64,000 bases of DNA, from IMG/VR virus record IMGVR_UViG_3300029788_000157, one strand, 5' to 3'. This DNA comes from a virus. Below the pieces are notes generated by a model. That model had not been told where the DNA came from, did not search any database, and saw nothing but the letters and a program-made list of their open reading frames with translations. Within the stretch, counting starts at the first letter, position 1. The number at the start of each line of letters is the position of its first letter. The translations under genes and the position numbers were made by a program. This document shows positions 52,517 through 55,366 of the stretch, piece by piece.

Positions 52517-55366
52517 ATGTTAGATACTCAAATCAATATATATAGTGTGGATACAGGTAACTTTTATAGTAATCACGAAGCCCATCTACACTGGTTAAAT
52601 CACAAATTGCGTTCCGAAAGAAATGCTTTGGTGCAAAAATCAAAAGATATAACCAGTGAACTTTTTAAATACGGAATTGAGCAAAGTGATTTGGATACAA
52701 TGTTAAAATCTGAATATGATTATTCAGGTTGGGGCGAAGATACAGAACGTATTCAATCTCTTGGAAATGAATATGTCAATCTTAAAGAATTGATTGTCAT
52801 GAAAAACAGAAAAATCAAGTATAGCAAAGATACTCTTTTGCAACTTCTGGAAAATAAAGTCAATGCAAATATTGTTTCTGATGGAAAGCATCATATTCGT
52901 GAATTAAAGGAAAATGATGTTTCTGATAAAAAAATAATTTCTGTGTTTGATTCTTCTTTTACAAGAATGATACACGCACAACCTAATGAACTGTCAGAAG
53001 ATTTTATGGTTGTTCAGGTATATTATTTTGATATAATCAAGGATTTAATATACTACGGATTTACATATAAGGGAGAAAAGTATATTTACTTTACTTCTTC
53101 TGCTGGTCAAATTCGAACAAAGAAAACTGTATTCATTAAAGAGTCAACATGGAAAAAATATGAAAAAACAATTATGTGTGGACTAACAATAGATGTCATT
53201 AATTCAAAAGGTGGTAATAATCCTAATAAGCATTTGGCATACACTGCATTAACCAATTCTGCTACAGATGCATGGGAAGAATTTGATATTGACAAAACGA
53301 TTGTTATTGATGATTTTGAGACAAATGTGTTTGGAACATATGACTTAGTAGATGATGCAGACTATTCTATCAAGCGTGTATCAGATTATGTGCCAATTAC
53401 TCATACTGATGGAGCTGGAATGATGTTACCTCATATGGGTAAAAATAGAATGGTTCGTTTACCTTGGGTAAAAGGACTGCTTGGAAAATTTGATTATGTT
53501 CATTTTATAGAGGTTAATGGTTGCTCTCCTATCATCAAGGACATTTATGGAAAAGAACATGATATTATCGCAGAAGGCATTGAAATCATATTTACAAAAT
53601 CACAATTCAAGATGTGGAAGTATTATGATTCATGGGAGCAATACAAAGAGTATTATAAAAAATATCATTGTACTGCTGGATATACTAATCTTGAAGAGGA
53701 TAGAATAAGAAATGCAAAAATCAATTATCAAATGCTTCAGACATTAACCGATATTACTGATGAGGAGATATTGGAAATTGCAAAACCATCTATCAATAAA
53801 TTGCAAAATCTTTGTTCTTCTGTTGAGAACATTAAAGATGCATTTGGTATTACCCCTTATAATTTACATAAAAATTCGTTTCAAAAGTCTGTAGAGCTAT
53901 ATCCTGACCTATTGAATGACGAATATGTAAAAACACAACTGAGGAATACTAAAGATAGCATGATAAAACAGTATAAGTCTGGAAAATTACAGATTTATGG
54001 AAAGTATACTTTTTTACTTCCTGATTTTTATGCAGCTTGTCAATATTGGTTTCAGGGAATAAAAGACCCTGAAGGATTATTGGCTGACCAAGAAGTATTC
54101 TGTTGGTTATTTAGAAAATCAGATAAGTTGGATTGTTTACGTTCTCCTCATCTTTACAAAGAACACGCAATAAGAAAAAATATTGCATATTGTAAAAATG
54201 AACGTCAAAAACTTATAAGAGAATGGTTTGATACTGATGCCATTTATACCAGTTGCCATGACTTAATTAGTAAAATTCTTCAGTTTGATGTAGATGGAGA
54301 TAAGTCTCTTGTGGTGTCTGACAGGAAATTTATTGAAGTCGCAGAAAGAAATATGAAAGGGATTGTTCCTTTGTATTACAATATGCGAAAAGCATCCCCC
54401 ACTCTTCTAACATCTGAGAATATTTATAATGGATTGGTGGCTGCTTTTACAGGTGGAAATATTGGATTGTATAGTAATAATATTTCTAAAATTTGGAACA
54501 GTGAGGTATTTATTTCAGGAACACCAGAGGAAAAACAAGAAGCTATTGACCTTGTTAAACTACTTTGTATGGAAAATAACTTCGTCATTGATTATGCGAA
54601 AACTTTATATAAACCGCAACGTCCAAAAGATGTTCATGAAAAAATCATTGCTCACACCAAAGAGAATGTTCCTCATTTTTTCAAATATGCAAAGGATAAG
54701 GATGAAGTACAGGTTTCAAATATAAATGCAAGTTTTGTAAATAAGCTAAATAGCATTATCCCAAATCCGAGAATTAATTGTAGGTCATTAAAATTAGGAA
54801 CTATAGATTATAAGTTGCTTATGCACAATCCCGATATTGAATGTCGTGTTGATTTTACTGATAGAGGAAAATTAATAAAGGAAAAGACTGACCCCTTGAT
54901 TGTAAAATATTGTGAGTTGAGTAGCAAACATCATTTTCAAATCAATCTCAACTATAAAGAAAATCTTTCTCCTGATTTAATGAAACATTCTCAAATAGTA
55001 CAAGATTTATTATATAAAAATATTTCAAATGAAATAAAAACAGCTTTATCCGAATTTGGATATAGTGAATCAGAAATAGCTGACATACTTGTAAAATATT
55101 TATACGGAATTAAGAAAAGTAAACACAAAGTTGCATTATGGTTATGTTATGGAAATATCATTTATGAAAATATAAAAGAAAATGGATGTAAAAATAATCA
55201 TAAAAGTATTCAGTGTGTAGATTGCGGAGAATGGTTTGATGTGTTGACAAAAAATAATAATACTTGCAGATGTCCAGATTGTTATGAAGAATATAGAAAA
55301 AATCGTAAATTAGAGACTCAAAGAGCAAGAAGAAACAAAATGAAGTCGGGTCAAAAAATTTTATAA
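52517..55366 (+). CDS. large DxDGD-motif protein; candidate YonO-like single-subunit RNA polymerase (alternative: primase-polymerase)
   Basis: 949 aa; QFDVDGDK resembles the two-barrel RNAP catalytic DxDGD motif; C-terminal CVDCG...CRCPDC zinc ribbon; YopX also present elsewhere in the window. Confidence 0.4.
   Translation: [949 protein letters not shown]

What the first reader, a model, noticed from the sequence alone, without database searches (positions are those of the whole stretch)
52517..55366. 949-aa DxDGD-motif protein: candidate YonO-like single-subunit RNA polymerase
The protein carries QFDVDGDK, similar to the absolutely conserved NADFDGD / DxDGD metal-binding motif of the two-barrel RNAP catalytic subunit (beta-prime, QDE-1, SPbeta YonO). 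It also has a PHMGKNRMV segment reminiscent of the lysine-rich beta-subunit DPBB motif and a C-terminal zinc ribbon. No T7-like RNAP is present, YopX (another SPbeta-named family) is encoded here, and the gene sits behind its own motif-A site. An archaeo-eukaryotic primase-polymerase is the alternative reading (FDVD as primase motif I, SPH as motif II), given its position next to the rep-like gene.
Basis: inference. Interest (0 to 1): 0.6.

Follow-up and report, generated by a model that had tools for sequence, protein, structure and literature searches.

The report
YonO-type phage RNA polymerase gene
This gene encodes a clear relative of YonO, the unusual one-protein RNA polymerase that Bacillus phage SPbeta uses to switch on its late genes; here it sits in a ~130-kb gut-bacterial phage, so it is a new member of a known family, not a new kind of enzyme.

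Summary
ORF 52517-55366 (+) encodes 949 aa with QFDVDGDK (aa 589-596), PHMGKNRMV (305-313) and a C-terminal 4-Cys ribbon.

The YonO reading is supported, by much more than a motif:
- The protein aligns end to end with SPbeta YonO (43% identity, E=0). Its DVDGD lies on YonO's aspartate triad.
- It passes Pfam RdRP (PF05183).
- An AlphaFold model (pLDDT 85.9) significantly matches only two-barrel polymerases: RDR2, QDE-1 and Thermus phage P74-26 gp62.
- No AEP primase signal appears in any search.
- Gene order copies SPbeta: small ORF, polymerase, HU-like gene, exonuclease, YonG-like gene, terminase.

The family is large (1261 clusters at 50% identity). The same phage is in IMG/VR as a 130-kb contig. 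Relatives come from gut and rumen Clostridia.

Most likely function: DNA-dependent RNA polymerase for the late genes. A single-copy conserved box after the HU gene (55898-55924), ahead of 16 tRNAs, is a candidate late promoter (inference).

"Motif A" is real: 20 copies, one 27 nt before this gene's ATG. It mostly precedes early-type genes, SPbeta has none, and the phage encodes its own sigma factor. Specificity of this enzyme for motif A is not supported.

Verdict: new member of a known kind.

The parts
52517..55366 (+). Gene for a 949-aa YonO-family single-subunit two-barrel RNA polymerase.
   Evidence: ORF. 43% identity to SPbeta YonO over aa 2-922, E=0. Pfam RdRP above gathering score. PHROG 8308 at E=8e-245. 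AF2 model pLDDT 85.9 matching RDR2, QDE-1 and P74-26 gp62.
54281..54304 (+). Catalytic metal-binding motif QFDVDGDK (aa 589-596), with Asp triad D591/D593/D595.
   Evidence: Aligns with YonO QFDNDGDK. D591, D593, G594, D595 and K596 are invariant in 40 sequences. YonO with the triad changed to Asn is inactive (PMC5467207). The isolated segment is not detected by Pfam RdRP on its own.
53096..53125 (+). [10 protein letters not shown] segment (aa 194-203) in the first (beta-like) barrel region.
   Evidence: S194, S195, A196, G197, Q198, I199, R200, T201 and K202 are invariant. The segment lies inside the Pfam RdRP match, aa 167-505. Its resemblance to the S-x-S-Q-x-R signature of cellular RdRPs is from my own knowledge and was not tested residue by residue.
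53429..53476 (+). [16 protein letters not shown] segment (aa 305-320).
   Evidence: Aligns with YonO [17 protein letters not shown]. M312, R314, P316, K319 and G320 are invariant, while K309 is not conserved. A role in substrate binding is inferred.
52571..52876 (+). N-terminal long helical hairpin (aa ~19-120), about 50-60 aa longer than in SPbeta YonO.
55214..55282 (+). C-terminal four-cysteine zinc ribbon (C900, C903, C919, C922), followed by a basic helix.
   Evidence: All four Cys are invariant in 40 sequences and present in YonO. Weak Pfam Zn_ribbon_8 hit. Weak profile match to eL37 and DUF1610 ribbons. Function unknown.
52474..52493 (+). Motif A copy (core TTAAGGTTATA at 52480-52490), 27 nt upstream of the polymerase start codon.
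   Evidence: Conserved upstream of the orthologue in L005, L006 and L009.
55378..55436 (+). Second motif A copy (55378-55388), 12 nt after the stop codon, followed by a strong intrinsic terminator (55406-55436).
   Evidence: RNA fold -23.5 kcal/mol, z=-4.3. A motif A copy at +15 to +68 after the stop is conserved in nearly all clade members.
55528..55842 (+). HU-like DNA-binding protein gene, the positional equivalent of SPbeta yonN.
   Evidence: Pfam Bac_DNA_binding at E=7.5e-8. Same position as yonN. Conserved after the polymerase gene in relatives.
55855..55897 (+). Conserved small hairpin plus TTTATATA (55855-55873), then a terminator-like hairpin (55874-55897).
   Evidence: Alignment A2 and RNAalifold, with compensatory pairs in hairpin 1. 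Hairpin 2 has different sequences but kept pairing across loci.
55898..55924 (+). Conserved box ACTTCTTACATTCATATTTAACCTTTC (clade consensus TTCTTTTCATTCAT-T-rich-ACACCTTTC): the candidate late (YonO-type) promoter.
   Evidence: One copy per locus, 545-776 nt after the polymerase stop, in 23 non-redundant loci. Followed by a variable-sequence hairpin (55930-55947). No conserved minus-strand ORF. Syntenic with the SPbeta P_YonO interval. Promoter function is inferred, not shown.
55954..57462 (+). Array of 16 tRNA genes between the box and the late genes.
   Evidence: ARAGORN finds 15 and Rfam one more at 56321-56400. In L003, L005, L008, L020 and L024 the tRNAs also start right after the box.
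57495..63246 (+). Start of the late/packaging cluster: exonuclease (57495-58838, YonJ-like by position), YonG-like protein (58831-59880), large terminase (59895-61676, YonF-like) and portal (61693-63246).
   Evidence: PHROG 704 and 3314. Terminase and portal PHROGs. tblastn to SPbeta yonG at 29% and yonF at 49%.

Best explanation
The gene encodes a YonO-family enzyme: a single polypeptide that carries both double-psi beta-barrels of the cellular RNA polymerase active centre. It should make RNA from a DNA template, using the D591/D593/D595 triad to hold the catalytic magnesium.

By analogy with SPbeta, the enzyme is made from the early/middle transcription unit on the + strand (294-aa ORF, 60-aa ORF, polymerase), which ends at the strong terminator at 55406-55436. 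It then transcribes the late genes that follow on the same strand. In this phage those would start with a 16-tRNA array, followed by the exonuclease, terminase and portal genes.

Basis of each step:
- Shown here by computation: family membership, fold, an intact catalytic motif and conserved gene order.
- Taken from experiments on SPbeta YonO: DNA-dependent RNA synthesis, dependence on the triad, and late-gene specificity.
- Inferred: that this phage's late promoter is the conserved single-copy box at 55898-55924, just after a terminator-like hairpin and just before a variable 5' hairpin.
For: - Full-length homology to SPbeta YonO: 42.9% identity over aa 2-922, E=0; BLASTP 398/928 identities, with DVDGD aligned to YonO's DNDGD.
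- The YonO triad is essential, and YonO is a DNA-dependent RNAP needed for 37 late genes (PMC5467207).
- Pfam RdRP at 33.7 bits against a gathering score of 23.8.
- Forty-sequence alignment with invariant D591, D593, G594, D595, K596, R200, K202, R314, K319 and four Cys.
- AF2 model with pLDDT 85.9 and pTM 0.77.
- Foldseek against the PDB gives only RDR2 and QDE-1 as significant matches: E=4e-15 to 1e-10 over 819-940 columns for five entries, and E=6.7e-9 over 673 columns for the sixth, 7w88.
- The BFVD top hits are phage proteins annotated as RdRP.
- Synteny with SPbeta yonP-yonO-yonN...yonJ-yonG-yonF.
- The box is conserved once per locus at the position syntenic with the SPbeta late start site. 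It heads the late genes even where tRNAs are absent.
Against: - No biochemical or transcript data exist for this protein or phage.
- Pfam's RdRP match covers only aa 167-505. The DxDGD segment alone is not recognised by the profile, so its assignment rests on the YonO alignment and the whole-chain fold match.
- The catalytic loop has low model confidence (pLDDT below 50 at aa 590-594).
- For the promoter inference:
  - The spacing between the two conserved blocks of the box varies by about 4-10 nt, which is unusual for a rigid polymerase site.
  - No counterpart is detectable in SPbeta or other Bacillales loci.
  - The exact SPbeta start site could only be bracketed by the published primers, not pinned to a base.
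  - A motif A copy between the polymerase and HU genes is an alternative late start.
Confidence: 0.85

Rival explanations
1. The enzyme is a YonO-type polymerase, but its promoters are the motif A sites (taactaTTAAGGTTATAya). On this view it would transcribe many genes on both arms, including its own gene (positive feedback) and the HU-tRNA-late unit from the copy at 55378, reading through the terminator at 55406-55436.
For: - Motif A is strongly over-represented: 20 hits against 3.6 expected, with 19 of 20 co-oriented with genes.
- It is a single block of about 17 nt with no -35 partner, like the promoters of single-subunit polymerases.
- The two-barrel RNAPs of phage P23-45 use short motifs repeated 7-14 times (PMC10770324).
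- The copy just after the polymerase stop is conserved in nearly all clade members. In the L098-L109 subgroup it is essentially the only copy within +/-10 kb; two of those loci carry one more, distant copy.
- Motif A occurs in the late arms of some relatives.
- YonO pauses little (PMC5467207).
Against: - Most copies precede early/middle-type genes such as RNA ligase, the NAD salvage genes and Sak4. SPbeta YonO controls only one late operon.
- No copy lies in the window's late arm, 56-64 kb.
- SPbeta has no such repeat.
- A copy in front of the polymerase gene itself would need another polymerase to start the loop.
- The phage encodes a sigma factor that could read motif A instead.
- The post-stop copy can pair with the terminator's 5' arm, which hints at an RNA-level role.
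Confidence: 0.15
2. The protein is an RNA-dependent RNA polymerase, as the Pfam family name and several GenBank annotations of homologues suggest. It would copy RNA templates like QDE-1 and RDR2.
For: - The Pfam family matched is 'RNA dependent RNA polymerase'.
- The closest solved structures are cellular RdRPs.
- Homologues in phages Perkons, PMBT24 and TR-TP1 are annotated as RdRP.
Against: - The only characterised member at this level of similarity, SPbeta YonO (43% identical over the full length), strongly prefers DNA templates and NTP substrates (PMC5467207).
- This is a dsDNA phage, and the gene sits at the head of its late genes.
- The RdRP annotations are name transfer from Pfam, not experiments.
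Confidence: 0.04
3. The protein is an archaeo-eukaryotic primase-polymerase (PrimPol), with FDVD as motif I and SPH as motif II. It would act in replication next to the rep-like gene.
Against: - No AEP, PrimPol or primase family was matched in Pfam at E up to 1, in PHROGs or in NCBIfam.
- The whole chain aligns with YonO and with two-barrel polymerases.
- A separate primase/helicase-like gene exists at 393-1892.
Confidence: 0.01

Closest known systems
YonO of Bacillus subtilis prophage SPbeta (single-subunit two-barrel DNA-dependent RNA polymerase; Forrest et al. 2017, PMC5467207)
   Same: Homologous over the full length (43% identity). It has the same Asp triad context (QFD-x-DGDK), the same [11 protein letters not shown] and [10 protein letters not shown] segments, and the same C-terminal 4-Cys ribbon. 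The genome position also matches: after a small ORF, before an HU-like gene, and upstream of the exonuclease, YonG and terminase genes.
   Different: - It is 110 aa longer. The extra residues are a longer N-terminal helical hairpin (aa ~27-95), about 10 aa near 665-675 and about 50 aa near 780-830.
- The host is probably a gut Clostridia/Lachnospiraceae bacterium rather than Bacillus.
- The rest of the phage is unrelated to SPbeta, apart from the YonG and terminase genes.
- A 16-tRNA array replaces SPbeta's 1.7-kb non-coding stretch between the HU-like and late genes.
- The non-coding signals differ.
Uncharacterised YonO homologue of Clostridium phage D-1873 (CLG_B2308), and metagenomic gut/rumen phage homologues (PHROG 8308)
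   Same: These are the closest sequenced relatives: 52% identity for D-1873 and 64-77% for metagenomic proteins. An HU gene lies downstream in both.
   Different: None of these has been studied, and they are annotated as hypothetical. D-1873 lacks motif A at the threshold used: at most one hit to the core within the 18-kb locus examined.
Cellular RNA-dependent RNA polymerases QDE-1 and RDR2 (Pfam PF05183)
   Different: Sequence identity is only 12-14%. They copy RNA templates in eukaryotic silencing, whereas the YonO branch is DNA-dependent (PMC5467207).
Non-virion two-barrel RNAP of Thermus phages (P23-45 gp64 / P74-26 gp62, PDB 8F5M), with the crAss-like phage virion RNAP as a related case
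   Different: There is no detectable sequence similarity (12% identity). It is much smaller, comes from a different phage lineage and has a different timing (early genes).

Membership tests
YonO family (single-subunit two-barrel DNA-dependent RNAP of Bacillota phages) | Full-length sequence homology to SPbeta YonO. | tested here: met
   tblastn gives 42.9% identity over aa 2-922, E=0. BLASTP gives 623 bits and 398/928 identities.
YonO family (single-subunit two-barrel DNA-dependent RNAP of Bacillota phages) | Catalytic aspartate triad DxDGD at the position of YonO's triad. | tested here: met
   DVDGD (D591/D593/D595) aligns with YonO DNDGD. It is invariant in 40 sequences.
YonO family (single-subunit two-barrel DNA-dependent RNAP of Bacillota phages) | Two double-psi beta-barrel fold in one chain. 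| tested here: met
   The AF2 model (pLDDT 85.9) matches RDR2, QDE-1 and P74-26 gp62 and nothing else significantly. The individual barrels were not delineated residue by residue.
YonO family (single-subunit two-barrel DNA-dependent RNAP of Bacillota phages) | Position at the head of the late/packaging gene cluster, next to an HU-like gene. | tested here: met
   Gene order matches SPbeta and dozens of related loci.
YonO family (single-subunit two-barrel DNA-dependent RNAP of Bacillota phages) | DNA-dependent, processive RNA synthesis and requirement for late-gene expression. | not testable with these tools
   Known only for SPbeta YonO (PMC5467207).
Pfam RdRP (PF05183; QDE-1/RDR cellular RNA-dependent RNA polymerases) | Score above the curated gathering threshold. 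| tested here: met
   33.7 bits against 23.8, E=2.3e-8, best stretch aa 167-505. The C-terminal catalytic segment alone is not matched.
Pfam RdRP (PF05183; QDE-1/RDR cellular RNA-dependent RNA polymerases) | Use of RNA as template. | not testable with these tools
   The characterised close homologue YonO prefers DNA templates, so this function is not expected.
Archaeo-eukaryotic primase / PrimPol | AEP catalytic fold and family profile match. | tested here: not met
   No AEP or primase profile hit. No AEP structure among the significant fold matches.
T7-like single-subunit RNAP (Pol A superfamily) | Pol A right-hand fold and RNA_pol family profile. | tested here: not met
   No such Pfam or PHROG hit. 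No such structure among the matches.
Multi-subunit RNAP beta/beta' subunits | Rpb1/Rpb2-type domain profiles and separate subunits. | tested here: not met
   No RNA_pol_Rpb1 or Rpb2 Pfam hit at E up to 1. The protein is a single 949-aa chain. Only the active-site architecture is shared, according to the literature (PMC5467207).

The most novel reading that the evidence does not exclude
The conserved single-copy box after the HU gene would be the first sequence-defined promoter class for a YonO-type polymerase. Its clade consensus is TTCTTTTCATTCAT-(T-rich)-ACACCTTTC, and in the window it lies at 55898-55924. It sits between a terminator and a variable 5' hairpin.

In this phage clade the two-barrel single-subunit enzyme would then transcribe a large tRNA array as the first part of its late transcript. 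The family-invariant C-terminal zinc ribbon might serve as a built-in initiation element. The YonO promoter was left open in 2017, and no later paper in the library defines it.
Probability: 0.3. Interest if true: 0.55.

Novelty: new member of a known kind. Interest (0 to 1): 0.3.

Why it matters
The enzyme class is already known, and a standard Pfam or BLAST search recognises this gene, so the identification itself is routine.

Three points have some value.
- **Spread of the family.** YonO-type polymerases are not a Bacillus curiosity. They head the late genes of a very large group of ~130-160-kb phages of gut and rumen Clostridia: 1261 clusters at 50% identity, and 249 IMG/VR loci from a single scan.
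- **A testable promoter candidate.** This clade offers many diverged genomes in which the polymerase gene, the HU gene and a conserved non-coding box stay in register. That gives a concrete candidate for the still undefined YonO promoter.
- **A tractable transcription programme.** The window appears to hold three layers of transcription signals: host-type promoters with a palindromic operator, motif A together with a phage sigma factor, and the YonO-type enzyme. This makes it a workable system for studying how a minimal two-barrel polymerase is fitted into a phage programme.

Tried and rejected
1. **AEP primase reading.** Rejected: there are no profile or fold matches.
2. **PDB sequence searches.** Searches with the single protein and with the 40-sequence profile found no polymerase. 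Only fold comparison links the protein to solved structures.
3. **ATGAGGGTG as a shared promoter core.** This 9-mer occurs in SPbeta (L001 9415) and in the window (55928). It is absent at that position in the other clade members, so it is probably a chance match.
4. **The box as the RBS and start of a small minus-strand gene.** This was suggested by its reverse complement, GAAAGGTG-N-ATGAATG, and by the variable spacing. Rejected: the ORFs from that ATG run 6-80 codons with no conserved peptide or frame.
5. **Cross-clade promoter search.** No 14-mer (up to 2 mismatches) from SPbeta's yonN-yonK non-coding interval recurs in 28 Bacillales loci. The only hits lie in the yonN coding region, in the AT-rich stretch just upstream of it, and in an AT-rich stretch just before yonK.
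6. **The box in more distant Lachnospiraceae prophages** (polymerase 51-57% identical). Absent there, and the architecture differs.
7. **A motif-A-like repeat in SPbeta.** Only the known SPBRE operator is repeated.
8. **Exact SPbeta start site.** I tried to place genome coordinate 2225998 on the SPBc2 record. I could not do this reliably without the B. subtilis 168 sequence, so the start is only bracketed by the published primers at L001 9283-9306 and 9499-9525.
9. **Sigma factor co-occurrence with motif A.** The single-sequence scan of viral contigs returned only three loci, all carrying a 99-100% identical sigma gene (two of them on the contigs that also hold the identical polymerase). It was therefore uninformative.
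10. **Rfam on SPbeta's 1.7-kb non-coding stretch.** It found only a small DUF3800-VIII RNA match and no large ncRNA family.
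Full report
**1. The observation**

The ORF is exactly as described: 52517-55366 on the + strand, ATG start, 949 aa. An AAGAAAGGTG ribosome-binding site lies just upstream.
- QFDVDGDK is at aa 589-596.
- PHMGKNRMV is at aa 305-313.
- A CxxC...CxxC pair is at C900/C903 and C919/C922.

**2. What the protein is**

- **Sequence.** Pfam places it in RdRP (PF05183) at 33.7 bits against a gathering score of 23.8. PHROGs places it in the unannotated family 8308 at E=8e-245. A translated search of annotated phages gives the decisive result: the protein aligns over aa 2-922 with YonO of Bacillus phage SPbeta at 42.9% identity, E=0. 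It also aligns with all SPbeta-like phages, and best (51.9%) with an uncharacterised protein of Clostridium phage D-1873.
- **Residue level.** In the pairwise alignment, QFDVDGDK lies on YonO's [28 protein letters not shown] lies on [21 protein letters not shown], and the C-terminal cysteines are shared.
- **What is known about YonO.** It is an experimentally characterised, processive, DNA-dependent RNA polymerase. Its aspartate triad is essential, and it is required for the 37 late genes of SPbeta (PMC5467207).
- **Conservation.** In a 40-sequence alignment (identity to the query 44-77%), the invariant residues include D591, D593, G594, D595, K596, the SSAGQIRTK stretch, R314, K319 and all four ribbon cysteines.

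**3. Structure**

An AlphaFold2 model built on that alignment is confident (mean pLDDT 85.9, pTM 0.77). The catalytic loop itself is poorly defined.
- Foldseek against the PDB returns six significant matches, all cellular two-barrel RdRPs: RDR2 of Arabidopsis and maize, and QDE-1. Five have E=4e-15 to 1e-10 over 819-940 columns; the sixth (7w88) has E=6.7e-9 over 673 columns.
- The viral structure library returns phage proteins annotated as RdRP.

Two caveats apply. Sequence-only searches of the PDB find nothing. The Pfam profile does not recognise the DxDGD segment on its own. The catalytic assignment therefore rests on the YonO alignment and the whole-chain fold match.

**4. Context**

- **Gene order.** It copies SPbeta: a small ORF (52290-52472, in the position of yonP), the polymerase, an HU-like gene (55528-55842, in the position of yonN), an exonuclease (57495-58838, in the position of yonJ), a YonG-like gene, the large terminase (YonF-like) and the portal.
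- **Similarity to SPbeta.** Only the polymerase, the YonG-like protein and the terminase are detectably similar to SPbeta at the sequence level. What is shared is a polymerase-plus-packaging module.
- **Minus-strand arm (1-49 kb).** It carries early/middle-type functions: Pnkp/RNA ligase, a NAD salvage set, a primase/helicase-like gene, Sak4, methylases and integrase-fold proteins.
- **Genome and host.** The same phage is present in IMG/VR as a 130,268-bp contig. Relatives at 64-66% identity come from gut and rumen Clostridia or Lachnospiraceae bins. Prophages at 54-57% identity sit in cultured Lachnospiraceae.
- **Family size.** There are 1261 clusters at 50% identity with E up to 1e-3, and 362 with E up to 1e-30.

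**5. How it probably works, and the promoter question**

In SPbeta, YonO starts a single late transcript downstream of yonN and upstream of yonK. The promoter sequence was left undefined, and I found no later paper that defines it. The published primer-extension primers map to L001 9283-9306 and 9499-9525, which is 260-500 nt after yonN.

At the syntenic place in the window, and in 22 further non-redundant relatives, the layout is conserved:
- the HU stop codon;
- a small hairpin plus TTTATATA;
- a terminator-like hairpin whose sequence varies while pairing is kept;
- a strongly conserved box (consensus TTCTTTTCATTCAT, a T-rich spacer, ACACCTTTC; window 55898-55924);
- another hairpin of variable sequence;
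- then tRNAs or the first late gene.

The box occurs once per locus, 545-776 nt after the polymerase stop. It is also present in a subgroup with no tRNAs.

Its reverse complement looks like a ribosome-binding site plus ATG. However, the minus-strand frames are 6-80 codons long with nothing conserved, so it is not a gene.

A terminator, followed by a conserved non-sigmaA-like block, followed by a 5' hairpin, is what one expects at the head of a transcript made by a phage-specific polymerase. I therefore propose the box as the late promoter, at about 0.3-0.35 probability. Three things weigh against it:
- the spacing between its two blocks varies;
- it is absent from more distant prophages;
- it has no detectable counterpart in Bacillales loci.

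**6. Motif A**

Motif A is real: 20 hits against 3.6 expected, with 19 of 20 co-oriented with genes. It is a single block of about 17 nt with no -35 partner, ending 17-32 nt before start codons.

However, it mostly precedes early-type genes and the polymerase gene itself. None lies in the window's late arm, and SPbeta has nothing like it.

The phage encodes a sigma-70-family protein (22027-22548; Pfam, NCBIfam and PHROG all agree). That protein is at least as good a candidate reader.

One copy lies 12 nt after the polymerase stop, in front of a strong terminator. It is conserved in nearly all clade members, and in several relatives it is followed by its own inverted copy. That hints at an RNA-level or regulatory role.

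I leave motif A unexplained.

A second repeat (motif B) is a near-palindrome over the -35 element of consensus TTGACA-N17 promoters firing leftward. It looks like the functional analogue of SPbeta's SPBRE/MrpR operator (PMC10516654).

**7. Verdict**

The finding is correct and its main interpretation is supported. It is a new member of a known family that standard searches recognise. Interest is modest (0.3). The most novel reading not excluded is that the conserved box is the first defined YonO-class promoter, and that the enzyme transcribes a tRNA array.

Noticed in passing
window 48455-48522 (-): Pistol self-cleaving ribozyme, Rfam RF02679 at 62.6 bits against a gathering score of 34.5. It lies immediately 3' of a motif A copy (48530-48540) and upstream of the small gene 48159-48416. 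Relatives carry Twister-P5 ribozymes (L003 2089-2151, L005 3072-3130).
   Followed up: partly
window 22027-22548 (-): Phage-encoded sigma-70-family factor of 173 aa: Pfam Sigma70_r2 above threshold, TIGR02937 at 54.2 bits against 42.9, and PHROG 'RNA polymerase sigma factor' at E=6e-20. The phage therefore carries both a sigma factor and a YonO-type polymerase.
   Followed up: partly
window, 20 sites, e.g. 3661, 5220, 9324, 19973, 20872, 22020, 26863, 28399, 35657, 37765, 48530 (all -); 52480, 55378 (+): Motif A, taactaTTAAGGTTATAya: 20 hits against 3.6 expected. It is co-oriented with genes and ends 17-32 nt before start codons. It is conserved in related phages and absent from SPbeta. Its function is unresolved: promoter for the phage sigma factor, promoter for the YonO-type enzyme, or an RNA-level element.
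   Followed up: partly
window 20889, 28464, 28507, 37317, 39110, 40381, 41186, 42154, 49194, 49346 (read on the - strand): Motif B is a near-palindrome, ATGTAGTTGTCAACTACAT, overlapping the -35 element of near-consensus TTGACA-N17-TAnnAT promoters; TG-extended -10 elements were confirmed for the two scanned copies (49.2 and 49.35 kb). These are probably early host-type promoters with a repressor operator, analogous to SPbeta SPBRE/MrpR. The integrase-fold ORFs 36231-37184 (weak MrpR_C_cat hit) and 39165-39959 lie close to motif B copies.
   Followed up: partly
window 22862-27525 (-) and 5723-6319 (-): Cluster of NAD+ salvage genes: NAD synthase, a Macro domain protein, nicotinamide phosphoribosyltransferase, a PRPP-synthetase-like protein, an isochorismatase/nicotinamidase-like protein and, elsewhere, a cytidylyltransferase-like (NMNAT-type) protein. 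It may be a counter-defence NAD-restoring set.
   Followed up: no
window 7061-9304 (-); 27576-28100 (-); 55954-57462 (+): A 747-aa Pnkp/RNA ligase fusion (a tRNA-repair type enzyme), together with 19 tRNA genes: 3 on the minus strand and 16 in the plus-strand array. Rfam finds one tRNA at 56321-56400 that ARAGORN missed.
   Followed up: no
window 33872-34600, inside ORF 33647-34867 (-): About 39 tandem copies of a 15-nt unit within a 406-aa ORF that matches only PHROGs of unknown function. It is a repetitive (pentapeptide-period) protein.
   Followed up: no
window 48900-51400: A strand-switch region where GC skew changes sign. It has G-rich repeats (49.5-50.05 kb), then C/A-rich repeats (50.3-50.9 kb), and two copies of ACAAGATTTGTACCAGCT (51283, 51325) just upstream of the uncharacterised 294-aa ORF 51402-52286. 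It may be a replication origin with iterons.
   Followed up: no
L020, L062, L066, L069, L122, L123, L126, L145; SPbeta-like phages Goe11, Goe14, BUCT083: In these relatives the match to the polymerase spans 3.2-4.2 kb instead of 2.85 kb, or is annotated as yonO_1/yonO_2 with an intervening ORF (GIY-YIG nuclease in BUCT083). The yonO gene is therefore repeatedly interrupted by an inserted element, probably an intron or a homing-endonuclease cassette.
   Followed up: no
window 28548-29849 (-): A transposase-like ORF of 433 aa (PHROG 506) lies within the early arm, next to the minus-strand tRNA cluster.
   Followed up: no
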